A DNA stretch of 64,000 nucleotides from an uncultured Collinsella sp. (GCA_900544845.1 UQWV01000002.1:20721-84720), one strand, 5' to 3'; positions 370 through 63,074 are shown, counted from the first letter of the stretch. Numbers and translations: made by a program. Notes: generated by a model not told the origin, from the letters alone.

Positions 370-565
370 TAATCGATGGCCTAGATGGTGGTGCGGAGAC
401 GCACGAATGCGCGGTTTTCCTGCGCGTTTGGGAGAATCGGGGTGCAAGTCCCCGGCTGTGCCAGTAACCGTAATTCCTCTTGGCCCGGGATGGCCGCGTC
501 GCAGATCGGACGACGCGCCCGGGTCGGTAAGGTTAAGTCGGATCGCCTCCCATCTTGCACGCGGC
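370..565 (+). promoter_or_regulatory. Candidate cobalamin (B12) riboswitch in the 5' leader of the giant surface-protein gene
   Basis: Read directly. GGGAGA-atc-GGGGTGCAAGTCC-ccg-GCTG-tg-CCAGTAACCGTAA at 430-474 matches the RF00174 core GGGAA..GGUGnAAnUCC..GCnG..CCCGCnACUGUAA. GGGATGGC at 487-494 matches the GGGAAGGC element. AAGTCGGATCGCCTCC at 533-548 matches the B12 box AGyCAGGAnACCUGCC. It is on the + strand, ~140 nt upstream of the ATG at 699. Confidence 0.6.
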
Positions 566-698
566 CGCGGCGCATGCCGCCGGTACGCGTTGGGCTCTGG
601 AGGGAAGGGGGACCCCGATGGGGGTACTCGAGCGCAATACGCGCGATGACGTGGGGCAGCCGCTGGGCAATGCTCCAAGTGCAGACAGTAGGAGACAA

Positions 699-3600
699 AT
701 GGATATGTTTGAGGACGAGTGTCAGCGTGCCTCGTGGCGTCGTCATGGGGTGATTGCGCGCGGCGTAGCCAGGCGCGGTCTGGTGGCCTTCCTGGCGTTT
801 GCCATGGCTTTTGGCACCACGCCGGCACAGCTGTGGGCCGAAGGCGCCGAGGGCATTGCCGACGCCGTGACTCAGGCCGCGACGGGCGGCGAGGGCGCGG
901 CGGCCGACGATGGCGCTGCTGCCGATACCGGTGTGAACGGTGCGCCGGCGAGCGCTGCTGCCGATGGCGCCGACGCGGATCAGGGCGCAACTGCGAGTGC
1001 CGCGAATGGCGATGACACCGACACGGGCAACGCGACTGAGTCTGAGAACTCTGCTGCGACGCCTGTCGCTTCGGAGCAGGGCGAGCCGAAGGCCGCTGCC
1101 GCTTCTGCCACGACGCTTTCCAGCGAGGCCAAGGTCTTCATCCAGGACACCAAGGATAAGGACAACTCGTATTCCACGAAGTCGGGGGCGCTCAAGGCTG
1201 GCGAGACGCTTTGGGCAAACATGTACGATGAGGACGAGGATGACCTCTACGGTTCTTCCTACTCCGTCGACAATCCCGGCACCTGGACTTACGCCTGGCT
1301 TGCCGGCACGACCAAGGCCAGCAGCAACGTTGCCGACTACACCGAGGTCGTAGGCAACGAGCAATCGCTCACCGTTACCGATGCCATGGTGGGCAAGTAC
1401 CTCATCTGCAAGGTGACGGCGGATGGCAAGGACTACTACGGCCCCTCGGTTTCGTACGGCTCGGGCATTAACCCCAACTACATCCCCGGCCCCGTGCTGG
1501 ACGCCGGCCAAATGGAGCTTTACAGCGTCAAGCTGAATAGCGACACGCCGAGCATAGGCGATACTCTGACGGCGACTCCGTACAAGGATTGGTCGAGCCC
1601 CGCGGGCTCTGACGCCAAGGTCACCTACACCTGGTCCGCTTCCACCTCTTCCTCCTCGGGCTTTACCAAGATCGAGGGCGAGACGGGCGCTACGCTCGTG
1701 GTGGGCGACGACCTCGAGGGTAAGTACATTAAGGTCGAGGCCACTGCCGGCGTCAACACGGTGAGCAAGACCACTTCCAGTAAGGTCAAACAGGCCGGTG
1801 CGGTCGAGATTTCGGCCGTGTCCATTATCAACACCAAGGACAACACGAGCGTCTTTGCGGTGGGGGATACCGCTAAGGCTCGCGCCAAGGAGAAGGGCGG
1901 TGCGTCCGGCGCGTTCGTCGACGCGAGCAAGCTCAACTATCAGTGGCAGTGCTCTGACACCAAGAGTGGCACGTATACCGACATTGCGGGCGCCACGGGT
2001 GAGACCCTCGAGCTTACCGACGCTTTGGGCGGCAAGTACCTCAAGTGCAAGGTGTCTTCGAAGATCGGCTCTTATAGCTTGACCAACTCGACGGGCGCTC
2101 TCGTTGCGGCTACCGGTTCAATTAATATCACCAAAGTGTCCATGAGCCCCTCCTCGGGCAAAGTCGAGGTTGGTTCCACGATCACGGCGACCGCCACGGC
2201 GGGTTCCACCGACGTTACCACCGATTCGCATGTCACGTGGCAGTGGTATAAGGGCACCTCGAACACCGCAAGCTCGTGCAACACGCCTATCGAGGGTGAG
2301 ACCGGCAACACACTGACAGTGACCGCTGCCCTTAAGGGCTACTACGTCGTGGCCAAGGCCAACGGCGGTTACGGTGAGCAGAGGCCTAACGGCTATTATG
2401 CGGCGGGTCCTGTCTCCATCGCTGGCCAAGTTGAGCTCTATGACGTGCAGTTTGAGGGCTCTCCTGCCACCAACGGCGTGCACGTGGGCGATAAGCTCAA
2501 GACTAAGGTGCGCAAAAAGGACGGTTCGCGCTACAGCTATATCGACCGCACCGATAATGTGACCTACCAGTGGCAGTATGCAAATAGCAGCTCGAGCTCC
2601 GACTCCGCTTACACCGATATCCCCGGTGCCACCGAGGCCGCCTATACCGTTGACGCTGCCTATGCCGGCAAGTATCTGCGCGTGAAGGTGACGAGCGAAA
2701 ACACCGTTTCCAGCACGCAGAAGAAGAGCTCATACGGCCAGACTGTTGCCCCGCTCGGCCCCGTGACGCTTAAGGGTCAGTACAAGCTGGCAGGCATTGA
2801 GCTTGCCGATAAGAACGTTACGCTGAGCGTGGGTTCAAAAATCACGCCGAGTGTGCAGGTGCCGGGCAGCTGGTCGGGCTCGACGGAGGATGTGCCCGAC
2901 GATGCCGAGCTCACCATGGCGTGGTATGCCAAGGGCGAGGGCGATGCCGATTGGACCGAGCTTACCGACGGCATCGATACGACCGATGGCAGCCTGACTA
3001 TTTCAGACGTGCTTGTTGGCAAGCGCATCAAAGTTACGGCGAGCGCCCTCGACAACACCGTTGAGTGGGTTTCGCCCGATAGCGTTACCGCAGCGGGGGA
3101 GTATAACCTGCTGCGCGTGACCACTACGCCGCAGATCAATAGCGATTCGACCCATCTCGTCTCGGGCGATAGCGTTAAGGCGACGGCGCAGGCCAAGCGT
3201 GCCGACGGTTCGACCACCAACGGTATCGACGTCACCGACCGGGCGACTGTTGCCTGGTATGCGGCCGACGACGCGAAGGCTCCCGCGGCCGACTGGACGC
3301 TTCTGCCCGATATGTCGGGCGCCACGGCAACGGTTTCGGCTTCTGCCGCGGGTAAGTATCTGAAGGCTGTCGCCACGAGCGGCAGCTCGACGGTTGAGCT
3401 CGTCTCTGTCAATCCCGTGATCGCCGCAGGCTCGCTTGAGGCCGCAGTCCAAAAGCTCAACGATGCCAATAAGCAGATCGCTGTTGATTACAGCGCCAAG
3501 GGCGGCAACGTCAACGATGTTCTGAAGGCGCAGCTTGCCGATCTGGGATTTACCGATATCGACGTCAAGGTCTCTGAGGGCGGCGTTACCTTTAAGGCCG

Positions 3601-6600
3601 GGGACGCCAAGGCTACGGTCGGTATCTCCGACGCCCAGGATAAGACCAACGGCGATGTGACGTTCTTCTTCATTGACCCCAACGACTACACCGGTTACAA
3701 CATCGACGGTCTGCGTAGCGCCGATGTGGTGTTTGAGCTGTCGCGCGATGGCAAGACCGAGTACTACCAGCCCAACAAGTCGGTGCAGGTTGCTTGGGAC
3801 GAGGCCCGCGTTCAGCAAATGCTCGACGATGCGGCCGAGCAGGTTGCCATCGGTTACGCTGCGGGCGATTCGGCCGAGTCCGTTACGTCTAACCTCACGC
3901 TTCCGTACCGCGCGGGTTCTAAGAACAAGTTCGAGGTTAGCTGGAAGAGCTCCGACGGCGATGTCATTTGGCCGTCCGGTTATGGCTGGGACGACTACAC
4001 CGGTAAGGTGACGCGCGTTTCGAGCGATCGCACCGTAACGCTGACCGCGACGGTTTCGTTTGTGAGCGGTGGCCCGAGCGATGTCGAGGGCTCGCACGAC
4101 TTCGCCGTGACCGTCAAGGGCGACCCCGAGAAGGTCGCTGCCGACAAGAAGGCACTGCAGGAGAAGGTCGATGCGGCCTTTACCTACGACAATATCAAGT
4201 ACTTCGACACCAAAACGGTTGCCAACAAGGACGGCCTGACCGCCGACCTGCAGATGCCGCGCACGAGCACGCTCAATATCGACGGCAAGTACTACAAGGT
4301 CGAGTACTCCGCCAGCACCGATGACATCACGTTTAACGGTTACAAGGGCACGGTCTACCAACCGCTGCCTGGCACCGAGGCAGCGAAGACCAAGGTCACC
4401 CTTACGGTGACCGATAAATCCAACGCCGAGGTCACGGCAAGCAAGACCCTCGACTTTGCGATTGCTCCGCAGGACCAGGACGAGCTCGATGCCGAGCTTT
4501 CTCTTATGGAAAAGGCGAAGACCGGCTATGCTGCCGCCATTCTGAATGGCCAGGACGCTAGTGCCGTTTCGACCGACATGCACGCGTTCCAGAAGGCGTA
4601 TCTTGATGCCGACGGCAACCTTGCCTGGAGCTACAACAAGGCAACGACCGATTCGACGTCCCTTGGCATTGTTCCGGTTGACCTGCCTGGTTATGACGCG
4701 ATGTCCGGTCAGGACTGGCGCCTGTTTAAGTCGAGCAACAGCTCCATTGTTTCTGCCGAGAATCTCAAGGTCACGCAGCCGCAGTACAACACCAGGGTTG
4801 TCGTTTCCTCGCGCCTGACGAGCGAGAAGTACGCTCGCTACGCTGAGCGCTATCCTGGCAACGCTACGTACGCTAAGCTTGCCAACCAGGACGTGTCGGC
4901 AAAAATCACGGTTCTGGGCACGAGCGGCCAAAACAGCCCGGAAGTGACGGCGACGTGCTCCGTCATTGGCATCGATGCCAAGGGCAAACAGCAAACGTGG
5001 GCTGCCGCGACGCAGTACACGCTCAAGAATGGCTCGACGGCCGCCGATCTTTCCGAGGAGCTCTTTAAGCAGGCCGGTCTCAAGGCCGACTACGATCCCA
5101 ACGGCTCTTGGGGTTGGGTGCTCAATTCCATTACGTCGCCTTTCGACGCCGATCGCACCCTTGCATATGACGCTGCTACGGGCGCATATTGGCAGCTATT
5201 CATTAACGGCGTCGCTGCATCGGTGGGTGCCGGCAACTACATCCTCGAGGCGGGCGACTCTGTCGTCTGGGGTTACTCGAAGTACGGTGACGCTGCGCCC
5301 ACCGACCAGCTTTCGGTAAGCTGCGCCGTTATCGGCCAGGACGCTTCGGGTGCTCAGCAAACGTGGGCTCAACCTACGACTGCGTTGGTGGAAGAGGGCG
5401 CAACTGCCGCCGACCTTTCCGAGCAGGTCTTTAAGCAGGCCGGTATTGGCGCCGACGTCCAAACCGGTTCGTATGGTTGGTTCCTCAATTCGCTGACTTC
5501 TCCGTTCAATAAGAGCGTGAAGCTTTCGACCGTACAGGTTAACGAAAGCACCTGGAAGTCCTGGCAGTTCTTCGTTAACGGCAAGATGGCCAATGTCGGC
5601 GCCGGCAACTACACGCTTAAGGCCGGCGACGAGGTTGCCTGGGTCTATGGTTCCAATGGCACCATGCCCGGTCAGGTTTCTGTCTCGATGGAGATCATCG
5701 GCAAAAAGGACGGTAAGGCCCAGCGCTGGACCGATCCTTCGATGCAGGTGTTTGTCGAGGGCACGACGATCAAGGACGCCACTGCCGCCTACTTTGATAC
5801 CTTGGGCATCAAGTCCGAGATGTACGATCAACATGGCTTCTGGGGCGTTCACAGCCTTGTCTCTCCGCTTGACGGCACTAAGTTGGCCGGCGCTTGGTCG
5901 TTCTTTGTTAACGGTGTTCCCGCAAATCAGCTTGACAGTGACTACGTGCTCAAATCGGGCGACACGATTGTCTGGGCTTATGCTCCCGGCGATACGGTGC
6001 CTAATCCCGACGAGGTCGTAGTCGATCCGAGCGCCCCGCGTCCGACCGATTGGAAGTCCGATTGGGATGGCAAGTCCAATGCGGCGGTCGAAAACGTTTC
6101 GACGCCTACGGGTGCGCTAGCGAGCTCCTGGACGTTCGATTGGAAGGCATATTCTGGTTCGGCGTATCCCAACGCGAGTGAACCTATCGTTGTGAACGGC
6201 AACGTGTATCTTGCCGTCAACAAGCGCTTGCTAAAGATTGACGCCGAGTCGGGCAAGGTCCTTGCCGAGTCGAATCTTAAGACTGCGGTCGGTTACACCT
6301 CGCGTCCGATTTATGCGAACGGTTTGGTTATCGTTCCGCTTGACGGCGGTGCGGTCCAGGCCCTGACGGCTGACGCGCTCACAACGGTTTGGGTCACTGA
6401 CTCCGTGAGCAGGACTGCTCAGTCGAATTCTCAGCTGACGGTTGATGGCAATTACCTCTATGTCGGCACCGTTGATGTCGACTATGGAACGAGTACGTAC
6501 AATAACGGTCATCTGACGCGTATTAATATCCTGACCGGCGCTGTTTCTTGGCAGCATGTCAATGCCGACGAGGGTTATTACTGGACGGGCGCGACGGTGG

Positions 6601-7889
6601 GCGATGACTATGTCTTGGTTCCCACCAGTGCCGGTACCGTCGAGATGCTCAGCAAGTCTTCGGGCGATGTGCTTGGAAGTGTTTCGGTTGGTGCTGTTGT
6701 CAACTCAAGCTGTGTGATTTCGGCTGACGGCGGCCATGCCTATCTAATCTCGCGCGACGGCAAGCTGCACGTGTTGGCGATTTCTGATGGCGACTCACGC
6801 GATGCGGATGCCGCTTCGCGTATTACCGAGGAGCGCGTAGTTGACCTTGGCCTTACCGGCTGCGCGTGCGCGCCTACGACGTATGATGGCAAGCTGATTG
6901 TTGGCGGCGAGGTTGCTGGCGGCTCTGCGCTAGCGATTATTGATCCGGCCAGCGACTTTGAAACGACGCTGGTTTCGTCTGCTGATGGCACTGCGCTTCC
7001 CACTGGTGGCATCAAGGGCGCTCCGCTGGTGAGCGTCCAGGGCGAAGACGCGTATGTCTACTTCACGGTTAACTACGGCGAGAGCCCTGATTTCGTTAAC
7101 TACACCTCGGGCGGTGGCGTATATCGTTACAAGTTGGGTGACGCTGGGGCTTCTGGTGTGTTTAGCGCAACAGGCCACAACAACTACTGTGACTCGCCAA
7201 TCGCTTGTGATGCCCAGGGCAACTTGTACTACATCAACGACTCTGGCACGCTGTTCAAGCTGAATGCTGGCGTTAAGGTTTCGTTTAGCGCTGGCGAGGG
7301 GTCCAAGGTCGATTTTCAGACTACGGCCGCCAACGGCTCTATCGCCAAGCCTGCCGATCCGACACGCGAGGGCTATACCTTCGCTGGTTGGTATACCGAC
7401 GAGGCTTGTACGGAGGCGTATGACTTTAGCGCTGCGGTGACGGCTGATATGACGCTGTATGCCAAGTGGGTCAAGAATGCCGTTAACCCTGGTGGTAACG
7501 GCGGCAATGGCGGCTTCAATGGCGGCTCGGGTAATGCCGGTGCTGGTTCTGGCTCCGGTAACGGCACAAACGGCCAGCAGACTGGCGGTGCTGTTGCTCC
7601 GGGCCAAAAGCCGGTGTCCACCACGACCAAGACCGAGACCAAGGACGGCAAGGATTCCAAGAAGGATTCCGACAAGTCCGACAAGAAGGACAGCAAGAAG
7701 TCTGATAAGAAGTCCAGCAAGTCCGGCTCCAAGTCGGATACGGGCGCGGCCGCCACGACTACCGCTAAGAAGTCCGCTGAGGCTCCTGTGCAGCAGTCTG
7801 GCTTCAATCCGCTTGCCATCGTTGGTGTTGCGGCCGGCGTAATCGGCCTTGCCGTCATCGGTGTGTTCGTATTCACCAAGCGTCGGTAG
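699..7889 (+). CDS. Giant (~2,396 aa) C-terminally anchored cell-surface protein with Ig-like repeats, 3x DUF4430-like modules (putative B12 binding), a PQQ-like beta-propeller and a Listeria-Bacteroides repeat
   Basis: Long ORF 555..7889. The start was refined to the ATG at 699 (or 705), preceded by AGGAGA at 690-695. The signal peptide is RRGLVAFLAFAMAFGTTPAQLWA, followed by an acidic low-complexity stretch. Nt 1250-3400 hold ~7 repeats with the signature YxWQ…GATGxTLxLTDAxxGKYLKCKV. Nt 4950-5995 hold three ~115-aa repeats ending …W(Q/S)(L/F)F(I/V)NG…GAGNY.L.AGD.V.W.Y. Nt 6180-7270 hold PQQ-like propeller repeats. The motif GYTFAGWYTDEACTEAYDFSAAVTADMTLYAKW is at 7371-7470. A G/N-rich then K/D/S-rich linker follows, ending in the terminal TM helix LAIVGVAAGVIGLAVIGVFVFTKRR with no LPXTG. 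Confidence 0.85.
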   Translation: MDMFEDECQRASWRRHGVIARGVARRGLVAFLAFAMAFGTTPAQLWAEGAEGIADAVTQAATGGEGAAADDGAAADTGVNGAPASAAADGADADQGATASAANGDDTDTGNATESENSAATPVASEQGEPKAAAASATTLSSEAKVFIQDTKDKDNSYSTKSGALKAGETLWANMYDEDEDDLYGSSYSVDNPGTWTYAWLAGTTKASSNVADYTEVVGNEQSLTVTDAMVGKYLICKVTADGKDYYGPSVSYGSGINPNYIPGPVLDAGQMELYSVKLNSDTPSIGDTLTATPYKDWSSPAGSDAKVTYTWSASTSSSSGFTKIEGETGATLVVGDDLEGKYIKVEATAGVNTVSKTTSSKVKQAGAVEISAVSIINTKDNTSVFAVGDTAKARAKEKGGASGAFVDASKLNYQWQCSDTKSGTYTDIAGATGETLELTDALGGKYLKCKVSSKIGSYSLTNSTGALVAATGSINITKVSMSPSSGKVEVGSTITATATAGSTDVTTDSHVTWQWYKGTSNTASSCNTPIEGETGNTLTVTAALKGYYVVAKANGGYGEQRPNGYYAAGPVSIAGQVELYDVQFEGSPATNGVHVGDKLKTKVRKKDGSRYSYIDRTDNVTYQWQYANSSSSSDSAYTDIPGATEAAYTVDAAYAGKYLRVKVTSENTVSSTQKKSSYGQTVAPLGPVTLKGQYKLAGIELADKNVTLSVGSKITPSVQVPGSWSGSTEDVPDDAELTMAWYAKGEGDADWTELTDGIDTTDGSLTISDVLVGKRIKVTASALDNTVEWVSPDSVTAAGEYNLLRVTTTPQINSDSTHLVSGDSVKATAQAKRADGSTTNGIDVTDRATVAWYAADDAKAPAADWTLLPDMSGATATVSASAAGKYLKAVATSGSSTVELVSVNPVIAAGSLEAAVQKLNDANKQIAVDYSAKGGNVNDVLKAQLADLGFTDIDVKVSEGGVTFKAGDAKATVGISDAQDKTNGDVTFFFIDPNDYTGYNIDGLRSADVVFELSRDGKTEYYQPNKSVQVAWDEARVQQMLDDAAEQVAIGYAAGDSAESVTSNLTLPYRAGSKNKFEVSWKSSDGDVIWPSGYGWDDYTGKVTRVSSDRTVTLTATVSFVSGGPSDVEGSHDFAVTVKGDPEKVAADKKALQEKVDAAFTYDNIKYFDTKTVANKDGLTADLQMPRTSTLNIDGKYYKVEYSASTDDITFNGYKGTVYQPLPGTEAAKTKVTLTVTDKSNAEVTASKTLDFAIAPQDQDELDAELSLMEKAKTGYAAAILNGQDASAVSTDMHAFQKAYLDADGNLAWSYNKATTDSTSLGIVPVDLPGYDAMSGQDWRLFKSSNSSIVSAENLKVTQPQYNTRVVVSSRLTSEKYARYAERYPGNATYAKLANQDVSAKITVLGTSGQNSPEVTATCSVIGIDAKGKQQTWAAATQYTLKNGSTAADLSEELFKQAGLKADYDPNGSWGWVLNSITSPFDADRTLAYDAATGAYWQLFINGVAASVGAGNYILEAGDSVVWGYSKYGDAAPTDQLSVSCAVIGQDASGAQQTWAQPTTALVEEGATAADLSEQVFKQAGIGADVQTGSYGWFLNSLTSPFNKSVKLSTVQVNESTWKSWQFFVNGKMANVGAGNYTLKAGDEVAWVYGSNGTMPGQVSVSMEIIGKKDGKAQRWTDPSMQVFVEGTTIKDATAAYFDTLGIKSEMYDQHGFWGVHSLVSPLDGTKLAGAWSFFVNGVPANQLDSDYVLKSGDTIVWAYAPGDTVPNPDEVVVDPSAPRPTDWKSDWDGKSNAAVENVSTPTGALASSWTFDWKAYSGSAYPNASEPIVVNGNVYLAVNKRLLKIDAESGKVLAESNLKTAVGYTSRPIYANGLVIVPLDGGAVQALTADALTTVWVTDSVSRTAQSNSQLTVDGNYLYVGTVDVDYGTSTYNNGHLTRINILTGAVSWQHVNADEGYYWTGATVGDDYVLVPTSAGTVEMLSKSSGDVLGSVSVGAVVNSSCVISADGGHAYLISRDGKLHVLAISDGDSRDADAASRITEERVVDLGLTGCACAPTTYDGKLIVGGEVAGGSALAIIDPASDFETTLVSSADGTALPTGGIKGAPLVSVQGEDAYVYFTVNYGESPDFVNYTSGGGVYRYKLGDAGASGVFSATGHNNYCDSPIACDAQGNLYYINDSGTLFKLNAGVKVSFSAGEGSKVDFQTTAANGSIAKPADPTREGYTFAGWYTDEACTEAYDFSAAVTADMTLYAKWVKNAVNPGGNGGNGGFNGGSGNAGAGSGSGNGTNGQQTGGAVAPGQKPVSTTTKTETKDGKDSKKDSDKSDKKDSKKSDKKSSKSGSKSDTGAAATTTAKKSAEAPVQQSGFNPLAIVGVAAGVIGLAVIGVFVFTKRR

Positions 7890-19488: not shown

Positions 19489-20706
19489 GTGTCTATGCGT
19501 ACCGATGATTTTGACTACAACCTTCCTGAGGAACTGATCGCCCAGGCTCCAGCTGAGCCGCGCGACTCCTGTCGCCTGCTGGTGGTGGATCGCAAGGGCT
19601 CCCAGGCGGGAACGCCGCTGGAGCACGGCGGTACCGTTGAGCACCGCATCTTCCGTGACATCATCGACTATATCGAGCCGGGCGACGTGCTCGTCATCAA
19701 CCAGACGCGCGTGATGCCGGCCCGCCTGATCGGTCGCAAAGCCGGCTCGGGCGGCGTGGTCGAGACCCTGCTGCTCAAGCGCCGCGAGGACGTGGATCCG
19801 CTGGGCCATGTTTGGGAGTGCTTGGTCAAGCCGGGCAAGCGCCTGAAGCCCGGTGCTCATATTGAGTATCGCGCCGGTGGCGCCCATGCGCCCGAGGGGG
19901 CTCCCGTGGTGCTGACGGCCGAGGTCGTCGACTTTGTCACCGATAGCCGCGGCGGCCGTCTAGTGCGTTTTGAGCCGGCTGGTTGCAACGCCGCCGGCGA
20001 GCCGCGCACGCTCGACGAGGCCATTCACGCCGCCGGTCATGTGCCGTTGCCGCCCTACATTACCGATTACGAGGGCGATCCCGAGAAATATCAGACCGTG
20101 TACGCCATGAAGGAGGAGCACTCGGCTGCCGCTCCTACGGCGGGTCTGCATTTTACTCCTGAGCTCATGGCCGCTATCGAGGCCAAGGGTGCCAAGTTTG
20201 CCGCCGTCGAGCTCGAGGTGGGCATCGATACCTTCCGTTTGGTGGAGGAGGACGACCCTACGCAGCACGTCATGCACACCGAGCGCTACCACGTGTCGCA
20301 GGAGGTTGTCGACGCCGTGCATAAGGCCAAGGCCGAGGGTCATCGCGTGATCGCCGTCGGCACTACCGCGGTGCGCTCGCTCGAGAGCGCGTTTGACACG
20401 GACGCGCCGGTGTCCGATCCGGCCGTGACGGCGCGCTATTTTGAGGGGCGTGAGGACGGGGCCGATACGCTCGGCCGCGGTGACATCGTGGTGCGCGAGA
20501 ACGCTACGACGCAGCTCTACCTCATGCCTGGCTCGACCTATCACGTGGTCGACGCGCTGATCACGAACTTCCACGTGCCGCGCTCTACGCTCATGATGCT
20601 CGTGAGCGCGCTTGCCTCCCGCGACCAGATCATGGATGCCTACGCTGCCGCCATCGAGGAGCGCTACCGCTTCTTCAGCTTTGGCGACGCGATGCTCATT
20701 TGTTAG
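19489..20706 (+). CDS. queA: S-adenosylmethionine:tRNA ribosyltransferase-isomerase
   Basis: 405 aa with full-length QueA similarity (…FDYNLPEELIAQAPAEPRDSCRLLVV…). AAGGAG RBS 8 nt before the GTG. Confidence 0.9.
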   Translation: MSMRTDDFDYNLPEELIAQAPAEPRDSCRLLVVDRKGSQAGTPLEHGGTVEHRIFRDIIDYIEPGDVLVINQTRVMPARLIGRKAGSGGVVETLLLKRREDVDPLGHVWECLVKPGKRLKPGAHIEYRAGGAHAPEGAPVVLTAEVVDFVTDSRGGRLVRFEPAGCNAAGEPRTLDEAIHAAGHVPLPPYITDYEGDPEKYQTVYAMKEEHSAAAPTAGLHFTPELMAAIEAKGAKFAAVELEVGIDTFRLVEEDDPTQHVMHTERYHVSQEVVDAVHKAKAEGHRVIAVGTTAVRSLESAFDTDAPVSDPAVTARYFEGREDGADTLGRGDIVVRENATTQLYLMPGSTYHVVDALITNFHVPRSTLMMLVSALASRDQIMDAYAAAIEERYRFFSFGDAMLIC

Positions 20707-20950
20707 TTACGCGGTTCTACGAACCGCGTAACGGCTCGACGCTGCAAACGCCCCTAAGCGGCAATCTGACGTTCAATCGTCGGGCATGACCAGAAGGTCA
20801 ATGCCCTCCTCTTTCACGTCACCTTGCTCGCTTAGGGGCGTTTTCGCTGACTTCGCCAAAACATTGGCGTTGCCGTGGTTCACTTGGCACTTGGTGGTTG
20901 TCTTTGGGCACGTTCTTAAATGACTAGTCAAAGGGTACCCTCTTGCGGCG
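20707..20950 (+). repeat. Structured ~245-bp intergenic element, copy A (second copy at 24012..24252)
   Basis: It starts right after the queA stop with the perfect hairpin TTACGCGGTTC/GAACCGCGTAA. An outer stem AAACGCCCCTAAGCG/CGCTTAGGGGCGTTTT encloses an inner hairpin with the conserved loop GACCAGAAGGTCA. The blocks GGCGTTGCC and CGTTCTTAAAtGACTA are shared with copy B. Confidence 0.6.
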
Positions 20951-21002
20951 CTTGGCACTTGACTATTGGTTGGTTACTTTCTTGTTCGACTTGTCTTTTA
21001 AT

Positions 21003-21122
21003 AACGCCCCCAACGACTACCTTGCATCAATCTAGATAAGTTGCGGTGAGATAGTTCTTGAATTGGCCTTTTTGAAGGCTAAATAGGAACTATCTCACCG
21101 CAACTGCGTTGGGGCGTTTTTT
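21003..21122. repeat. Nested perfect palindrome (REP-like); probable bidirectional terminator between queA-side and the convergent minus-strand gene
   Basis: Outer stem AACGCCCCCAACG/CGTTGGGGCGTT, inner stem AAGTTGCGGTGAGATAGTTC/GAACTATCTCACCGCAACT, then TTTTTT. The inner motif recurs at 29806 and 26532. Confidence 0.6.
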
Positions 21123-21132
21123 GGCAACCGGC

Positions 21133-22920
21133 TTACTTGCTCATGAACAGCCAGATTGCGATGATCACCAGGATTGCGGCGATGATGCAGGCGATGGCTC
21201 CGGTGAATTTGATGCGTGAGTCGCGGGTTCGCTTGCGCACGTCGTCTTCGGCGGCTTCGAGTTGGGCAACTTCGCGCTCGGTCTCGGTATGCTCGGCCTT
21301 GTCGCGTGCCAAGGACCCGGCGAGCGATTCGGTGATCTCGGGATGGTCGTGCACCTCGGTCGCCTGCTCGATAATCGACTGCGCATGCGCGGCATCTGCC
21401 CGGGCGTTTGCGATGGCCTGCTCTTGCTCGCGGCGTGCCTTGTCCTGTGTGGCGATCTTTTCGCGCAGCTCGCGCTGGCGCGTCGCGGCGGCAGTTTTTG
21501 CGGACTGCAACTCGTCGCGCGCGGCATCTGCCTCAGCCGTTACGGCCTGGTGCGCTCGTTTAGCGTCGGCGATGGGGGCCTGTGCCTGCTCGACGGCCTG
21601 CTCGGCGGCGGCGAGTGAATGCTCAAGATCGGCGGTCACGCGCGGAATATCTTCCTCGGCCTTGCGGAGGGCGTCGGCAGCGTCGGAGATTTGCATAGAC
21701 AACTCGCTGGTGCGCACGGTGTAATTGGCGGGATTTGCCGAAGGGTTGCGCTGCAGCTCGGCATACTCGCGACGCAAGGTCTCGAGCTGTGCGCGCGTAG
21801 CATCGGCAGTTTGTCGTGCGGCGGCGATACCGGCATCGCGCTCGGCCTTCACTTTGTCGCGGATGCGCTTGGAATCCTCAAGGCGACGAACGAGGCGGTT
21901 GCCGGTCTCGCGCGAGCTCGCCTCGCGGGCTTCCACGGCGTCGAGTGCAGCCTTCAGGCGGAGCTCGGTCGCATCGTCCTCTGCCTTCATTTGCTCGAGT
22001 TGGCCCTTGAGCTCCGTCGCTTTGGCGGCATGGGCATCACGGTTAATTTCAGCTGCCGCAGCGGTCTTCTGTGCCGTGGCGATTGCCTGGCGCTGGTCGG
22101 CGATGATCTGATCGTAGCGGCCTGCGATATCCCGGCGCGTCTCGAGCTCCTCTGCCTGGTCGGCGATGCGCTGCTCAAGCTCGGCTAAATGGGCGCGGGC
22201 ATCGGCGAGTGCCTTCTTGGCGGCGTTCATCTCGCGCATGGCCGACGCGCCCTGGGCGATAAAAGTGCCCACGGCGTTAGCGGTGTTCGAGACGGCGCTC
22301 CCCAGGTCGAGGCTCGTGGCGGGAGCATGCGGGGTGGTCGGGTGCGCGGCCTCGGCGGCATTCGTGTCGGCAGTCTGCGGCGCGGCGATATTGCCGGTGC
22401 CGCCTTCGATCACGGAAAAGCCCGCTGCGTGCGGGTCGACCGCATCGGCGCCGATCGTGGGGTGCTCGAGTTGCAGGAACGAGGGCATGGTGCTGCCCTG
22501 GTCGGCAACCGGGGTCTCGCCGGGCACAAACGTCGAGGCAGCCTCGGCGGCTTCCTCCTCCTCGGCGTCGACATCGGCATCGGCGACAGCGTCCTTCATC
22601 GCTTTGACGGCATCCATCATGGAGTCCATGACGGCGTCGAGCTCTTCTTCCGAAGACACCTCGATGGGGCCCGCTACTTGCGGAGCGTTCTCGGCCTTGG
22701 GCTCAGTGTCGCTCGGGTCCGGCTGCTCTAGCTGCTCTTCTTTGTCTTGCCCTGCGGCGACATTAGCGTCTGCGGCCTCGTCTGCGGCGGCAGGAGCCTC
22801 CCCGACAGCGGCATCAATGCCGCCATCGCTGCTGGTAGAAGTATCGCAGTCGTCAATGGTGTCTGCGGAATCATCAATATGCTGTTGAGTCTGGGGGTCC
22901 AGCTCGTCTGTCATAGGCAT
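21133..22920 (-). CDS. Tail-anchored coiled-coil protein (acidic N-terminus, Ala/Glu/Arg-rich coiled coil, C-terminal TM helix)
   Basis: ~595 aa. Compositional bias is visible, and the protein ends AIACIIAAILVIIAIWLFMSK. ATG at 22920/22914 after GAGGAG. Confidence 0.55.
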   Translation of the reverse strand: MPMTDELDPQTQQHIDDSADTIDDCDTSTSSDGGIDAAVGEAPAAADEAADANVAAGQDKEEQLEQPDPSDTEPKAENAPQVAGPIEVSSEEELDAVMDSMMDAVKAMKDAVADADVDAEEEEAAEAASTFVPGETPVADQGSTMPSFLQLEHPTIGADAVDPHAAGFSVIEGGTGNIAAPQTADTNAAEAAHPTTPHAPATSLDLGSAVSNTANAVGTFIAQGASAMREMNAAKKALADARAHLAELEQRIADQAEELETRRDIAGRYDQIIADQRQAIATAQKTAAAAEINRDAHAAKATELKGQLEQMKAEDDATELRLKAALDAVEAREASSRETGNRLVRRLEDSKRIRDKVKAERDAGIAAARQTADATRAQLETLRREYAELQRNPSANPANYTVRTSELSMQISDAADALRKAEEDIPRVTADLEHSLAAAEQAVEQAQAPIADAKRAHQAVTAEADAARDELQSAKTAAATRQRELREKIATQDKARREQEQAIANARADAAHAQSIIEQATEVHDHPEITESLAGSLARDKAEHTETEREVAQLEAAEDDVRKRTRDSRIKFTGAIACIIAAILVIIAIWLFMSK

Positions 22921-23208
22921 GTGCTCCTCATCGTTGTTTGTCACCCTATGATAAAGTCTCGCGCCGACATCCCGCGCCCCGCAGCAAAGTTTCAAAACGT
23001 GTTCGATGGCTCGCGCCGATAGCAAAAACTCGGCCGCTCTACCCAGTTTGTACTTGACAATCCCTTCGCCGAAAAACGTTATGCCGTTCGCCTACCACGG
23101 GCTTTATTTTTCACTCGAACCCGCTAAAGTTGCATTTCAGCTTTTGGCGCGTGAAGTTGGATGCGCGCAGTCGGCGGGCGTGCCCGTCGCGATTCGAAAG
23201 GACTTTGT

Positions 23209-24009
23209 ATGGGACTTTTCACTGGTAAGACCGTGATCGTCACCGGCGGCGGCAAGGCCACGCTCAAGGACGGCTCCGCTGGCTCCATCGGCTACGGTAT
23301 CGATATCGCTTTTGCCAAGGAGGGCGCGAACCTCGTTATCACCGGTCGTAACGTCGCCAAGCTCGAAGCTGCCAAGGAGTCTCTTGAGGCTGAGTACGGC
23401 GTCAAGGTTCTGCCTGTCCAGGCCGATGTCTCCGCCGGCCAGGACAACGAGGCCGTCGTGCAGAACGTTATCGACAAGGCGATTGAGGAGTTCGGTCGCA
23501 TCGACGCCGTCGTCAACAACGCTCAGGCCAGCGCCTCGGGTGTGACCATCGCCGACCACACTATGGACCAGTTTAACCTGGCCATTTACTCTGGCCTGTA
23601 TGCCACCTACCTGTACATGCAGAAGGCCTATCCGCACCTGAAGGAGACCAAGGGCTCCGTGGTCAACTTTGCTTCGGGCGCCGGCCTGTTTGGCAACTAC
23701 GGCCAGTGCAGCTACGCCGCTGCCAAGGAGGGCATCCGCGGCCTGACCCGCGTCGCCGCCAACGAGTGGGGCAAGGACGGCATCAACGTCAATATCGTGT
23801 GCCCGCTTGCCTGGACTGCTGCGCTCGAGAACTTCCAGGACGCCTATCCCGAGGCGTTCAAGGCCAACGTTCACATGCCGCCGGCGGGCCATTACGGCGA
23901 CGTCGAGAAGGAGATCGGCCGCGTGGTCGTTCAGCTCTGCGGCCCCGACTTTAAGTATATGAACGGCGAGACCGTCACCCTCGAGGGTGGCATGGGCCAG
24001 CGGCCTTAG
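23209..24009 (+). CDS. Short-chain dehydrogenase/reductase (SDR) family oxidoreductase
   Basis: TGGGKATLKDGSAGSIGYG Rossmann motif, NNAQ, and a YxxxK catalytic motif (YAAAK). AAGGA RBS. Confidence 0.85.
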   Translation: MGLFTGKTVIVTGGGKATLKDGSAGSIGYGIDIAFAKEGANLVITGRNVAKLEAAKESLEAEYGVKVLPVQADVSAGQDNEAVVQNVIDKAIEEFGRIDAVVNNAQASASGVTIADHTMDQFNLAIYSGLYATYLYMQKAYPHLKETKGSVVNFASGAGLFGNYGQCSYAAAKEGIRGLTRVAANEWGKDGINVNIVCPLAWTAALENFQDAYPEAFKANVHMPPAGHYGDVEKEIGRVVVQLCGPDFKYMNGETVTLEGGMGQRP

Positions 24010-24011
24010 GG

Positions 24012-24252
24012 GTTACGGCGTTTTACCAAACGCCGTAACGGGCCGACGCTGCGCGGTCACCAGAGCGACAACTTGTCATTCAAAGAGGGCGGCATGACCA
24101 GAAGGTCTATGCCGCCCTCTTTTCATGCCAATTTGTTCGCTCTGGCGACCGCTCGCTGACGTTGCTAGAACATCGGCGTTGCCTTGGCTGTTGGAGATGA
24201 TCCCAGATATAGTCGTTGGGGGGCGTTCTTAAACGACTATGACCCCTTTGCG
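24012..24252 (+). repeat. Structured ~245-bp intergenic element, copy B
   Basis: It starts right after the SDR stop with the hairpin GTTACGGCGTTT/AAACGCCGTAAC. Outer stem GCGGTCACCAGAGCGACAA/TTGTTCGCTCTGGCGACCGC. Inner stem is the perfect 14-bp AAAGAGGGCGGCAT/ATGCCGCCCTCTTT with loop GACCAGAAGGTCT. Confidence 0.6.
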
Positions 24253-24334
24253 CCAGTTTCTGTCGAGTCGGTGCTCCTTGCGGGTTGCCCGTATAATGGT
24301 TTGCGTATGAACCGCAACCAAGGAGTTCCAGTTT

Positions 24335-25474
<1,140 letters not shown>

Positions 25475-29805: not shown

Positions 29806-29886
29806 CTAAGTTGCGGTGGAATAGTTCCTAGAATGGGCCATTTGATGGCCAAGCAGGAACTATTTCACCGCAACTTTGTTTTTATT
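29806..29886. repeat. Perfect palindrome of the AAGTTGCGGTGgAATAGTTCC family, plus T-tract (REP-like terminator)
   Basis: AAGTTGCGGTGGAATAGTTCCT…AGGAACTATTTCACCGCAACTT, then TTGTTTTTATT. Confidence 0.6.
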
Positions 29887-36540: not shown

Positions 36541-36584
36541 CTGCGGCTCGGCACTTAGGGATGCTCCTTTTCTGCCGGCAGCTG

Positions 36585-46407: not shown

Positions 46408-46442
46408 TTGTGCGTCGTTGCGGTGCAATCCGGCGGCAAAAT

Positions 46443-46474
46443 CACCACAAAGGCTCCTGTCCCCTTTGTGGTGG
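46443..46474. repeat. CCACCACAAAGG-loop-CCTTTGTGGTGG hairpin (copy 1 of 3) just upstream of the phosphatase RBS
   Basis: CACCACAAAGGctcctgtccCCTTTGTGGTGG. Copies at 62080 and 63037 are identical or reverse-complemented. Confidence 0.6.
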
Positions 46475-55749: not shown

Positions 55750-56589
55750 ATGGCGATCTATGTGACATCTGATGCTCACGGGCACGTGCGTGCGCTTGAC
55801 GAGGCCCTGTCTAAGATCTCGTTGACTTCCGACGACACGCTGTACGTGCTGGGCGACATGATCGATCGCGGGCCCGATCCGGTCGGCGTTATTAAGCTCG
55901 TGCGCTCGCTGCCCAACGCCCGCGTGCTCAAGGGTAATCACGAGCAGATCATGCTCGATGCCATCGTTGGCCAGGATCCGCTCGATGCCGAGACCTGGGA
56001 TATCAACGGTGGCTGGACGACGCGCGAGCAGCTCAACGACATGGAATATGAGGCATACGAGGAACTCGTGCGATGGATGGCCGCGCTGCCGCTCTACGCG
56101 GTGGTCGAGACCGAGGAGCGCCCGTATCTGCTGGTACATGCTGGAATCGAGATGAAGGCGGCGCGCGCGTTTTTGCTTGAGCATGGCGTCGATTGTGCCG
56201 ATGGCGTCGGAGCGGTGGATGCCGATCGCGAGCTGCTGCAGCAGATGCTCGCGGTGCAGTCGTCCGATGACCTGCTATGGATTCGTCACGGCTATTGGGA
56301 TGTGCCGACCGGGCTGCTTTCTGCCGAGGGCAAGGGCCCGGTCGTGGTGAGCGGCCACACGCCCACGGTATCGCTTGGGCGCTATTGCGAGGTCGGTGGT
56401 CTGGCGGGGCTCGATGAGGAATCGGGACGCGGGCAGATCGTGCGCTTGGGCGGCGAGGACACTGCCGGTGTGCCCGATCGCATCGACATCGACTGCGCCG
56501 CCGCCACCGGCTCCGAGTTCGGCCGCGTGGGCATCCTGCGCCTGGACGACGGGGCGGAGTTCTACGCGAACATCAACCCGGGCGAATAA
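55750..56589 (+). CDS. Metallophosphoesterase (PPP-family Ser/Thr phosphatase / ApaH-like)
   Basis: Motifs GDMIDRGPD and GNHE. AAGGAGAGG RBS. Confidence 0.8.
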   Translation: MAIYVTSDAHGHVRALDEALSKISLTSDDTLYVLGDMIDRGPDPVGVIKLVRSLPNARVLKGNHEQIMLDAIVGQDPLDAETWDINGGWTTREQLNDMEYEAYEELVRWMAALPLYAVVETEERPYLLVHAGIEMKAARAFLLEHGVDCADGVGAVDADRELLQQMLAVQSSDDLLWIRHGYWDVPTGLLSAEGKGPVVVSGHTPTVSLGRYCEVGGLAGLDEESGRGQIVRLGGEDTAGVPDRIDIDCAAATGSEFGRVGILRLDDGAEFYANINPGE

Positions 56590-56784
56590 CCTTGTTCCGC
56601 CGTTCTACCGAACGGCGGTCACGTTGACGCTGCGCAGCCCCGAAGCACCCCATCTTGTCGCTCAAACCGTCGCTCGCGTACAGAAGTACGCGTCGCTCCT
56701 CTTTCGCGCCAACCTGGGGCACTTCGAGGCTGCTCGCTGTCGATGCCAAAACATCGACGTTTCTTTTCTTCAAATTGATTCGAA

Positions 56785-60112: not shown

Positions 60113-60170
60113 CGGCACTTAGGGACGTTCCTTATGTGCCGGCACTTTGGGAACGTCCCTAAGTGCCGGC
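60113..60170. repeat. Perfect 18-bp-stem palindrome immediately after the lactate permease stop (REP-like terminator)
   Basis: GGCACTTAGGGACGTTCC…GGAACGTCCCTAAGTGCC. The 13-mer CGGCACTTAGGGA also occurs at 36549. Confidence 0.6.
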
Positions 60171-60389
60171 ATCCGGGGGCGCTCCTTGAATGTTGCCTGT
60201 TCAAGAGTGTTCCCAATGACTAGGCGTTTAAAAACGTCCCCAATGACTAGGCCGCTTGCCTGCGATTTTTGACCGTTGGGCGGGCTTGCCGCCCTTGCCG
60301 CAAAAACGTTTTTGCATATCGGGTACAACGGGCTTTACGTGAGTAAAGTGCGCGTCGCGTCAACGTGTCGCGTTTTTAAAGGAGGCCCC

Positions 60390-62079: not shown

Positions 62080-62117
62080 CCACCACAAAGGGGACAGGCA
62101 CCTTTGTGGTGGTTTTG
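62080..62117 (+). terminator. Terminator of pckA; copy 2 of the CCACCACAAAGG hairpin
   Basis: CCACCACAAAGGggacaggcaCCTTTGTGGTGG then TTTTG. Confidence 0.65.
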
Positions 62118-63036: not shown

Positions 63037-63074
63037 ACCACCACAATGGTGCCTGTCCCCTTTGTGGTGGTTTT
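63037..63074 (+). terminator. Terminator; copy 3 of the CCACCACAAAGG hairpin, in inverted orientation relative to copy 2
   Basis: CCACCACAAtGGtgcctgtccCCTTTGTGGTGG then TTTTT. The loop is the reverse complement of the loop at 62092. Confidence 0.65.

What the first reader, a model, noticed from the sequence alone, without database searches (positions are those of the whole stretch)
20707..24252. Two copies of a ~245-bp structured element with compensatory stem changes around a conserved loop, each beginning exactly at a gene's stop codon
Copy A (20707-20950) and copy B (24012-24252) share three features. First, a perfect hairpin starts at the stop codon, with different sequence but the same shape (TTACGCGGTTC/GAACCGCGTAA versus GTTACGGCGTTT/AAACGCCGTAAC). 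Second, a long outer stem is again different in sequence but paired in both (AAACGCCCCTAAGCG/CGCTTAGGGGCGTTT versus GCGGTCACCAGAGCGACAA/TTGTTCGCTCTGGCGACCGC). Third, an inner stem of different length closes the same palindromic loop GACCAGAAGGTC(A/T). Conserved sequence blocks follow (GGCGTTGCC, CGTTCTTAAAyGACTA). Covariation that preserves structure is the signature of a functional RNA (3'-UTR-derived sRNA, or a protein-binding or RNA-stability element) rather than a decaying MITE.
Basis: seen in the sequence. Interest (0 to 1): 0.6.

Follow-up and report, generated by a model that had tools for sequence, protein, structure and literature searches.

The report
Collinsella stop-codon-adjacent mosaic hairpin repeat
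The two "structured elements" are real, but they are two of three local copies of a roughly 175-base repeat found on the order of a hundred times per genome across the gut genus Collinsella, so this is an apparently undescribed repeat family rather than a unique regulatory RNA.

Summary
Both copies start at a stop codon (queA; a short-chain dehydrogenase, SDR), fold far better than shuffled sequence, and differ in their stems by paired changes.

- **More copies than reported.** A third copy lies at 56594-56766. A 20-base pattern hit more than 120 genome contigs, nearly all labelled Collinsella or Coriobacteriaceae. Density is about one copy per 20 kb.
- **The "245-bp element" is composite.** The core is about 175 nt: hairpin H1, GACGCTGC, a roughly 107-nt long hairpin, then a conserved tail (TCGCTG...AACATCGGCGTT). 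The CGTTCTTAAAyGACTA block belongs to a different small repeat.
- **Pairing is strongly maintained.** 96.9% of cells pair, and 30 of 50 pairs show changes on both sides. The variation comes as about seven discrete hairpin types that recombine with independent H1 and tail types.
- **Rapid turnover.** At the queA site the element diverges faster than synonymous positions.
- **Not a MITE.** There are no terminal inverted repeats or target-site duplications.
- **RNA function is unproven.** G-U pairs are equally frequent on both strands. Placement next to the stop codon is the only strand-specific evidence.
- **An IS110-family insertion sequence targets the invariant TCGCTG motif**, as IS621 does with E. 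coli REP.

Closest analogues are REP/BIME and the mycobacterial TRIT motif.

The parts
20706..20732 (+). Copy A, module H1: a perfect 12-bp hairpin that shares its first G with the queA stop codon TAG (20704-20706).
20738..20745 (+). Copy A, invariant linker motif GACGCTGC. Its GC(U)G pairs with CGC of TCGCTG to close the long hairpin.
20741..20847 (+). Copy A, long hairpin of type AAACGCCCCTAAGCGG. It has an outer, middle and inner stem, conserved internal loops (CAATCTG/CACCTTG and TTCAA/TTTCA), and the apex GACC-AGAA-GGTC at 20788-20799.
20844..20876 (+). Copy A, conserved tail TCGCTG...GCCAAAACATTGGCGTTGCC. It is conserved in sequence but has no consistently supported pairing. TCGCTG is the IS110 target in related loci.
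24012..24039 (+). Copy B, module H1 (variant GTTACGGCG), starting 2 nt after the SDR stop codon TAG (24007-24009).
24045..24156 (+). Copy B, GACGCTGC (24045-24052) plus the long hairpin of type GCGGTCACCAGAGCGA. The apex is at 24096-24107.
24153..24185 (+). Copy B, conserved tail TCGCTGACGTTGCTAGAACATCGGCGTTGCC.
56594..56766 (+). H1 (GTTCCGCCG variant, 56594-56622) starts 4 nt after the TAA of ORF 55750-56589. GACGCTGC is at 56626-56633. The long hairpin is of type GCAGCCCCGAAG with apex GTAC-AGAA-GTAC at 56678-56689. The tail runs 56734-56766 and here forms GTCGATG/CATCGAC followed by a U-rich run.
20898..20926 (+). It is not part of the core.
24210..24239 (+). Module X copy downstream of copy B (TAGTCGTTGGGGGGCGTTCTTAAACGACTA).

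Best explanation
**What it is.** These are members of a high-copy, Collinsella-restricted, modular palindromic intergenic repeat. I could find no prior description of it.

Each unit has three parts:
- a 12-bp hairpin (H1) placed from a 1-nt overlap to about 7 nt after the stop codon of a co-oriented gene;
- a roughly 107-nt long hairpin with conserved internal loops, closed by the invariant GACGCTGC and TCGCTG motifs;
- a conserved, unpaired tail of about 30 nt.

**Shown.**
- The family is dispersed at about one copy per 20 kb.
- Hairpin complementarity is strictly maintained across about seven discrete hairpin types.
- H1, hairpin and tail types reassort by recombination at the conserved linkers.
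- Copies at the same orthologous site are replaced, nested, internally deleted or lost between closely related strains.
- Recombination between copies A and B can delete the 3.3 kb between them.
- An IS110-family insertion sequence uses the invariant TCG-CT-GTC motif as its insertion site.

**Inferred (about 45% likely).** Nearly every copy lies where it would be transcribed in sense as the start of the upstream gene's 3' UTR, with H1 inside the footprint of the terminating ribosome. I therefore infer that the family is tolerated or selected as an RNA-level 3'-end module. In this role the stacked hairpins would block 3'-to-5' exonucleases and/or help end or insulate the transcription unit, and the conserved loops and tail might bind a protein. 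The spread and homogenisation of copies would be a DNA-level recombination process.
For: **Family size and taxonomy**
Nearly all are labelled Collinsella or Coriobacteriaceae. The rest are unnamed "uncultured bacterium" bins plus two bins with Firmicutes/Oscillospiraceae labels.
- An nhmmer profile of the core found 164 hits in 965 kb, 3 of them in the 64-kb window.
- At least 23 of 80 metagenome contigs carrying queA end inside the element, which is the usual sign of an assembly break at a repeat.

**Structure**
- Folding z-scores are -6 to -10.
- 96.9% of cells pair and 30 of 50 pairs change on both sides. None of 500 shuffles reached this, and slid controls pair at 33-41%.
- Left and right arm types match perfectly in 203 copies, while H1 and tail types assort freely with hairpin type.
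- The asymmetric internal loops TTCAA/TTTCA and CAAYYTG/CAMYTTG are conserved across all hairpin types.

**Placement**
- In 106 of 135 copies, an ORF of at least 80 codons ends between a 1-nt overlap and 7 nt before H1.
- About 22 of 25 independent sites obey this rule once nested copies are resolved.
- The tail end lies a median of 141-160 nt from the next gene.

**Turnover**
- At the queA site there are 55 distinct sequences in the 80 queA loci. Over the 64 loci that could be compared, element identity is 68% against 84.6% at queA third codon positions, with r=-0.04 between the two.
- Occupied and empty orthologous sites exist, and in one pair (L069 versus L075) the element replaces a canonical bidirectional terminator.
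- L124 carries an A/B hybrid copy.

**IS110 targeting**
- The insertion lies at the same nucleotide in 10 loci, in two different genomic copies and at least 4 hairpin types.

**Precedent**
- The mycobacterial TRIT motif has 147 copies, is a conserved palindrome, and has a narrow position around the stop codon (PMC3152330).
Against: - No transcript data are available.
- G-U pairs are equally frequent on both strands (220 against 226), and the reverse strand folds better in 102 of 105 copies. The stems therefore behave like DNA palindromes as much as like an RNA.
- Changes on one side of a pair (about 24 cells) are rare compared with changes on both sides (180 cells). This fits swapping of whole alleles rather than stepwise RNA compensation.
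- H1 has no U-tract. Canonical U-tract terminators exist elsewhere in the window, and one sits downstream of copy A at 21002-21125. The element is therefore not a canonical terminator.
- In M. tuberculosis, predicted TRITs barely overlap mapped 3' ends (bioRxiv 10.1101/2022.06.01.494293).
- Three sites break the stop-codon rule. In two of them the element is antisense between tandem genes.
- The copy-number estimate rests on held fragments, not on a closed genome.
Confidence: 0.6

Rival explanations
1. The element is a purely DNA-level selfish repeat, like a REPIN or a palindrome-associated element. The hairpins would be single-stranded DNA structures recognised by an unidentified recombinase or transposase (for example an HUH/RAYT-like enzyme) that also sets the insertion site and orientation. 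Any RNA folding would be incidental.
For: - G-U pairs are symmetric between strands, and the reverse strand folds better.
- Hairpin alleles are discrete, with both arms swapped as blocks.
- Turnover is fast, and presence/absence, nesting and internal deletions all occur.
- New copies join at the apex of older hairpins (GACC^...) in three independent junctions.
- The conserved asymmetric loops could mark one DNA strand, as extrahelical bases do in integron attC sites (my own knowledge).
- The IS110 targeting resembles that of REP.
Against: - No candidate mobilising enzyme was seen in the held sequence.
- There are no terminal repeats or target duplications.
- A replication-strand-directed process would not place H1 within 8 nt of a co-oriented stop codon in about 22 of 25 sites.
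- The element is essentially absent from viral contigs.
Confidence: 0.25
2. The element is a non-canonical (U-tract-poor) transcription terminator family, functionally equivalent to what was proposed for the mycobacterial TRIT motif.
For: - Its position at gene ends.
- It replaces a canonical bidirectional terminator in L069 relative to L075.
- Some hairpin types end in GGGCGUUUU or GGGCUUU, and copy C's tail forms a 7-bp stem followed by a U-rich run.
- 54 of 125 evaluable copies (43%) face a convergent gene.
Against: - H1 and several hairpin types lack any U-tract.
- The organism has ordinary U-tract terminators.
- Copy A is followed by a separate canonical bidirectional terminator at 21002-21125.
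- The consensus scan flags only a weak 5-bp site inside copy A.
- TRIT predictions overlap few mapped 3' ends in M. tuberculosis.
Confidence: 0.15
3. This is the first reader's reading: a discrete functional RNA gene (a 3'-UTR-derived sRNA or a specific cis-regulator) present in two copies and conserved by compensatory evolution.
For: Stable folds and paired changes.
Against: - There are hundreds of copies after unrelated genes.
- The sequence at one orthologous site is replaced among strains whose QueA is 98-99% identical.
- No Rfam family matches.
- No trans-acting seed region is conserved apart from motifs shared by every copy.
Confidence: 0.05
4. The element is a MITE, or copies A and B arose from a local segmental duplication of the queA-tgt spacer.
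For: - The copies are direct repeats flanking a 3.3-kb segment between genes that are usually adjacent.
- Strain L124 has a single hybrid copy.
Against: - The two ends are not inverted repeats (5' GTTACGCGG against 3' CGGCGTTGCC).
- No target duplication appears at three occupied/empty comparisons.
- The same family occurs at about 25 unrelated sites.
- A and B carry different H1 and hairpin types.
Confidence: 0.03

Closest known systems
REP / BIME (REPIN) elements of Enterobacteria and Pseudomonas
   Same: - High-copy extragenic palindromes at gene 3' ends.
- Stems kept by paired changes.
- Mosaic combination with other short motifs.
- Recombination between copies causes rearrangements.
- Used as the insertion site by an IS110-family element. 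IS621 in E. coli REP is from my own knowledge; the Collinsella case is.
   Different: - No 5' GTAG head.
- The unit is about 175 nt with three modules, rather than 20-40 nt.
- Orientation is tied to the upstream gene, and the element abuts its stop codon.
- No RAYT gene was identified.
- The host is an actinobacterial genus.
TRIT (Tuberculosis Rho-independent terminator motif), Mycobacterium (Gardner et al. 2011, PMC3152330)
   Same: - Found in an actinobacterium and restricted to one genus.
- About 150 copies.
- A palindrome conserved in both sequence and structure.
- A very narrow position relative to the stop codon.
   Different: - TRIT is a single short, largely bidirectional hairpin that overlaps the coding end (around -8).
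- The Collinsella unit starts at -1 to +7, is directional, and carries a second 107-nt hairpin plus a tail.
- No sequence relationship was tested, because no TRIT model is available here.
BOX elements of Streptococcus pneumoniae, and ERIC and Correia elements
   Same: Modular or palindromic intergenic repeats that are co-transcribed with neighbouring genes and fold as RNA (my own knowledge).
   Different: - Those occur in both orientations.
- Correia and ERIC have terminal inverted repeats and TA duplications.
- There is no stop-codon adjacency.
SMAG repeats of Stenotrophomonas maltophilia
   Same: A large family of palindromes, a fraction of which lie within 20 bp of stop codons. They were proposed to act as RNA stabilisers or terminators (my own knowledge).
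   Different: - They are REP-type elements with a GTAG head.
- They are short.
- Only a minority are adjacent to stop codons.
Rfam Collinsella-1 motif (Weinberg et al. 2010, PMC2864571)
   Same: A candidate structured RNA from Collinsella and the human gut, with stem-loops.
   Different: cmscan of 20600-24400 at E<=10 gave no hit to it or to any relevant family.

Membership tests
MITE | Terminal inverted repeats | tested here: not met
   The 5' end is GTTACGCGG... and the 3' end is ...AACATCGGCGTTGCC. These are not complementary.
MITE | Target-site duplication flanking the insertion | tested here: not met
   Three occupied/empty comparisons (L090/L087 against L099, L069 against L075, L115 against L086) show replacement of the spacer and no duplication.
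REP/BIME (REPIN) | High-copy extragenic imperfect palindrome | tested here: met
REP/BIME (REPIN) | Conserved GTAG tetranucleotide at the 5' end of a 20-40-nt palindrome | tested here: not met
   The bases before H1 vary (TAG, TAA, TAGG, TAACTT and others) and reflect the host gene's stop codon. Genome-wide stop-codon usage is TAG 51%, TAA 42%, TGA 7%.
REP/BIME (REPIN) | Cognate RAYT (tnpA-REP) gene flanked by the repeats | not testable with these tools
   No whole Collinsella genome could be scanned; only 8-11-kb fragments are held.
Intrinsic (Rho-independent) terminator | GC-rich hairpin followed immediately by a 7-9-nt U-tract | tested here: not met
   H1 is followed by GGCTCGACG. The long hairpin is followed by 0-4 U depending on type. 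Only copy C's tail has a stem plus a U-rich run.
TRIT | Conserved palindrome with a narrow position at the stop codon, about 150 copies, genus-restricted | tested here: met
   The properties are analogous. This is a functional resemblance only.
TRIT | Match to the TRIT covariance model or sequence, in Mycobacterium | not tested
   No TRIT model is available. The host is Collinsella, so membership is not claimed.
Any Rfam family (including Collinsella-1) | Covariance-model score at or near the gathering threshold | tested here: not met
   There were 0 hits at gathering threshold in the whole window. Only chance miRNA/snoRNA-like hits to a different hairpin appeared at E<=10.
Integron attC site | R''/L''-L'/R' core sites (RYYYAAC...GTTRRRY) in clustered cassette arrays next to intI | tested here: not met
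   GTTACGC and GCGTAAC do not fit the consensus. Copies are dispersed after housekeeping genes at conserved positions.
Functional structured RNA (generic) | Strand-specific signal, i.e. an excess of G-U over A-C in stems | tested here: not met
   There are 220 G-U pairs in + strand folds and 226 in - strand folds of 105 distinct copies.

The most novel reading that the evidence does not exclude
The family is an RNA device coupled to translation termination. H1 sits inside the mRNA channel of the ribosome that is decoding the stop codon. Ribosome arrival and release would therefore gate the folding of a conserved three-module 3'-UTR structure, whose invariant loops and tail would be read by a dedicated Collinsella protein. 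The outcome would set mRNA 3'-end formation or lifetime for about 100 genes. This would be a more elaborate, directional counterpart of the unexplained mycobacterial TRIT motif.
Probability: 0.15. Interest if true: 0.7.

Novelty: new member of a known kind. Interest (0 to 1): 0.4.

Why it matters
- **Abundance.** Collinsella is an abundant and very diverse human-gut genus. A repeat present about 100 times per genome shapes its genome in several ways. It breaks metagenomic assemblies: at least 23 of 80 queA contigs end inside it. It mediates deletions between copies. It also provides a safe-harbour target for an IS110-family (bridge-RNA type) recombinase.
- **Open question.** Its strict placement at stop codons, shared only with the unexplained TRIT motif, gives a second and structurally richer system in which to ask what stop-codon-adjacent conserved hairpins do in Actinobacteria.
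- **Annotation.** These sites should be masked as repeats. They should not be called as sRNA genes.

Tried and rejected
- **Rfam.** No relevant hit at gathering threshold or at E<=10. Collinsella-1 is excluded.
- **Stop-codon bias.** TAG/TAA accounts for 112 of 113 stops next to the element, which looked like evidence that the element carries its own stop. It turned out to be the genome background, where TGA is only 7%.
- **Strand test.** G-U counts and the + against - MFE comparison gave no RNA-specific signal.
- **Hairpin 3 in the tail.** Pairing is inconsistent across variants and RNAalifold does not predict it (plus manual inspection). I treat the tail as a sequence motif.
- **Small ORFs.** None is conserved across hairpin types on either strand of the element (read).
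- **Alternative pairing.** The 3' arm of H1 could pair with the tail (CGGCGTT), but only for one H1 variant, and the tail does not covary with H1 type.
- **Integron attC, PYLIS/SECIS-like recoding.** Rejected on consensus and context. The ORFs end at the same residue in occupied and empty sites.
- **Viral origin.** 0 and 1 hits in IMG/VR.
- **Literature.** Searches for a described Collinsella repeat found nothing.
- **Failed scripts.** One regex bug was fixed. One search did nothing.


Full report

Yes. queA (19489-20706; Pfam Queuosine_synth) ends in TAG at 20704-20706, and its G is the first base of a perfect 12-bp hairpin at 20706-20732. The short-chain dehydrogenase ORF (SDR, 23161-24009) ends in TAG at 24007-24009. 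After a GG spacer the second hairpin runs 24012-24039.

Both regions fold far better than dinucleotide shuffles. Copy A gives -111.3 kcal/mol (z -6.96) and copy B gives -128.1 kcal/mol (z -9.85). The 23-mer GGCATGACCAGAAGGTCWATGCC occurs twice against 0 expected. A and B are 69% identical over 231 nt, and their outer and inner stems differ in sequence yet pair in both copies.

**2.

A sensitive blastn of A and B against the window found a third copy at 56594-56766. It again starts just after a stop codon, the TAA of ORF 55750-56589. It folds the same way (z -5.98), but its apex is GTAC-AGAA-GTAC. The "conserved loop" is therefore really a conserved AGAA on a covarying stem.

Aligning the three copies gives the true core of about 175 nt:
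- hairpin H1;
- an invariant GACGCTGC;
- a long hairpin of about 107 nt;
- an invariant TCGCTG;
- a conserved tail, ...GCCAAAACATCGGCGTT(GCC).

The block CGTTCTTAAAyGACTA belongs to a separate small repeat, module X (TAGTCRTTGGGGACGTTCTTAAAYGACTA). Module X follows many copies in either orientation, alongside other small repeats.

**3. It is a genus-wide dispersed repeat**

Nearly all are labelled Collinsella or Coriobacteriaceae. The rest are unnamed "uncultured bacterium" bins plus two bins with Firmicutes/Oscillospiraceae labels.

A profile of the core finds 164 copies in 965 kb of held sequence, 3 of them in the 64-kb window. That is about one copy per 20 kb, or on the order of 100 per 2.4-Mb genome. 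This is a rough figure because no closed genome could be scanned.

The copies fall into about 25 independent genomic sites after unrelated genes. In an independent set of 80 human-gut metagenome contigs carrying QueA at 98-99% identity, every contig has the element after queA. At least 23 of those contigs end inside a copy, which is the classic signature of an assembly break at a repeat. The element is essentially absent from viral contigs. Rfam has no matching family even at E<=10, which excludes the Collinsella-1 motif. I found no description of it in the literature.

**4. Anatomy and constraint**

On 24 representative copies, RNAalifold predicts H1 plus one long three-part hairpin closed by GC(U)G of GACGCTGC pairing with CGC of TCGCTG. 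The pair counts are:

| Measure | Value |
|---|---|
| Cells forming a standard pair | 96.9% |
| Pairs with changes on both sides | 30 of 50 (180 cells) |
| Shuffles reaching these values | 0 of 500 |
| Paired cells when partners are slid by 1-3 columns | 33-41% |

Between the variable helices sit conserved, asymmetric internal loops: CAAYYTG opposite CAMYTTG, and TTCAA opposite TTTCA. They are identical in all hairpin types. Simple arm-to-arm homogenisation would erase such loops, so a specific shape appears to be selected.

The tail is conserved as sequence. Its putative third hairpin is not consistently supported.

**5. How the variation is organised**

Typing 203 full copies shows about seven discrete long-hairpin alleles. 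Their left and right arms are in perfect association, with counts of 65/0, 45/0, 34/0, 27/1 and 10/0. H1 variants and tail variants assort freely with hairpin type. A few chimeras carry the outer stem of one type around the inner stem of another, with both arms swapped together.

The simplest reading is gene conversion or recombination among copies, with end points in the shared linkers and loops.

At the single queA site there are 55 distinct element sequences in the 80 queA loci. Over the 64 loci that could be compared:
- mean element identity is 68%, against 84.6% at queA third codon positions;
- element divergence is uncorrelated with flank divergence (r=-0.04).

The last queA codon and the stop codon also vary along with the H1 variant.

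Other structural changes include:
- tandem H1 modules;
- new copies joined at the apex of an older long hairpin (GACC^TTTGTAG..., GACC^TAGGTG...);
- precise loss of the long hairpin.

Occupied and empty orthologous sites exist. They show replacement of the spacer with no target duplication. In L069 the element stands where L075 has a canonical bidirectional terminator. In strain L124 a single hybrid copy (H1 and hairpin as in A, tail as in B) replaces the whole 3.3 kb between A and B, so copies recombine with each other. In L161 and L162 the SDR gene plus copy B are absent.

**6. Placement**

In 106 of 135 copies, a co-oriented ORF of at least 80 codons ends between a 1-nt overlap and 7 nt before H1. 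Most of the remainder are second copies nested behind a first one. Three sites are true exceptions, and two of those are antisense between tandem genes. The tail end lies a median of 141-160 nt from the next gene, and the space is usually filled with other small repeats.

The TAG/TAA excess is just the genome's stop-codon usage, where TGA is 7%. In occupied and empty orthologues the protein ends at the same residue, so the element does not supply the stop codon.

**7. RNA or DNA?**

The stems give no RNA-specific signal:
- G-U pairs number 220 in + strand folds and 226 in - strand folds.
- The reverse strand is predicted to be more stable in 102 of 105 copies, because the + strand loops are pyrimidine-rich (CCUCCUCUUUC).
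- Single-sided changes are rare next to changes on both sides.

Covariation among paralogous palindromic repeats can arise from allele swapping. It is therefore not, by itself, evidence for an RNA gene.

What does argue for a transcription-linked role is the asymmetric placement of H1, tight against the stop codon of a co-oriented gene. That puts H1 inside the footprint of the terminating ribosome and puts the whole unit at the start of the 3' UTR.

It is not a canonical terminator:
- H1 has no U-tract.
- The organism has ordinary U-tract terminators.
- One such terminator lies downstream of copy A at 21002-21125.
- The consensus scan sees only a weak site inside copy A.

**8. An IS110-family element targets the repeat**

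In 10 of the related loci, a 1.5-kb insertion is present. It encodes a 372-aa protein with Pfam domains DEDD_Tnp_IS110 and Transposase_20. The insertion sits at exactly TCG-CT^GTC of the invariant TCGCTG motif, with CT present at both junctions. It occurs in both the queA copy and the SDR copy, and in at least four hairpin types. This mirrors the insertion of IS621 into E. coli REP sequences (my own knowledge) and reinforces the REP-like nature of the family.

**9. Comparison with known systems**

It works like REP/BIME elements. It is a high-copy extragenic palindrome, it combines in mosaics with other motifs, it is a substrate for recombination, and it is an IS110 target. In position it works like the mycobacterial TRIT motif, which has 147 copies, is a conserved palindrome, has a very narrow position around the stop codon, and is restricted to one genus (PMC3152330).

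It is not a member of either family:
- It has no GTAG head.
- No RAYT gene is known.
- It has a different and larger three-module architecture.
- It is directional rather than bidirectional.
- The host is different.

It fails both defining tests for a MITE, namely inverted terminal repeats and target duplications. The proposed terminator function of TRIT is itself doubtful, because predicted TRITs overlap few Term-seq 3' ends. I therefore hold the terminator reading loosely.

**10. Verdict**

My best explanation, at confidence about 0.6 overall, is a previously undescribed Collinsella family of stop-codon-abutting mosaic palindromic repeats. The classification itself is about 0.85 likely. The RNA-level role as a 3'-UTR protection or termination module is about 0.45 likely. 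A purely DNA-level selfish repeat is the main rival, at about 0.25.

Novelty: a new member of a known kind, with unusual directionality and stop-codon adjacency. Interest: 0.4.

Noticed in passing
L124:6362-7880 (also L122, L145, L148, L156, L163, L172, L180, L199, L035): An IS110-family insertion sequence encodes a 372-aa protein with Pfam PF01548 and PF02371. It is inserted at exactly TCG-CT^GTC of the repeat's invariant TCGCTG motif, with CT at both junctions and ends ATGACCCAATCCG / CGGATTGGGTCAT. It is found in two different genomic copies and in several hairpin types, so the repeat is its specific target.
   Followed up: yes
window 21038-21106 and 29808-29876: Module Z is a 70-nt near-perfect hairpin repeat (AAGTTGCGGTGAGATAGTTC...GAACTATCTCACCGCAACT). 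It also appears in related loci downstream of the element. It gave spurious miRNA-like Rfam hits.
   Followed up: partly
window 36550-36580, 60114-60167: Module Y is a hairpin repeat (GGCACTTAGGGACGTTCCTT..GTGCCGGCA) placed 1-8 nt after stop codons of other genes (ORFs ending at 36540 and 60111). Stop-codon-adjacent repeats therefore seem to be a general habit of this genome.
   Followed up: partly
window 46442-46474, 62080-62112, 63038-63070: This is another palindromic repeat family (CCACCACAAAGG...CCTTTGTGGTGG) found downstream of genes, partly with a U-tract.
   Followed up: no
window 20991-21019 (-), 60221-60249 (-): These are further copies of module X (TAGTCRTTGGGGACGTT.TTAAA.G.CTA) in reverse orientation. 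Pairs of X in opposite orientation form larger palindromes in related loci.
   Followed up: partly
window 23108-24291: The SDR gene together with copy B and module X is a 1.18-kb presence/absence polymorphism. In L161 and L162, window position 23107 joins directly to 24292, with TAT microhomology at the junction.
   Followed up: partly
window 21133-23025 (-): A 630-aa ORF with no Pfam domain sits, together with the SDR gene, between queA and tgt, which are usually adjacent. The whole 3.3 kb is missing in L124.
   Followed up: no
window 20701-20706 and L121-L200 at the queA stop: The last queA codon is hypervariable among strains whose QueA is 98-99% identical (TGT, CAG, TTG, CTT). It changes together with the stop codon and the H1 variant, which suggests that recombination tracts reach into the end of the gene.
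   Followed up: partly
window 537-7889 (+): A very large ORF of about 2450 aa contains internal tandem repeats of about 330-370 nt (repeat finder families D4, D6, D12, D19).
   Followed up: no
window 21002-21125: An outer stem AACGCCCCCAACG / CGTTGGGGCGTT encloses module Z and is followed by TTTTTT. It looks like the canonical bidirectional terminator shared by queA and the convergent 630-aa gene.
   Followed up: no
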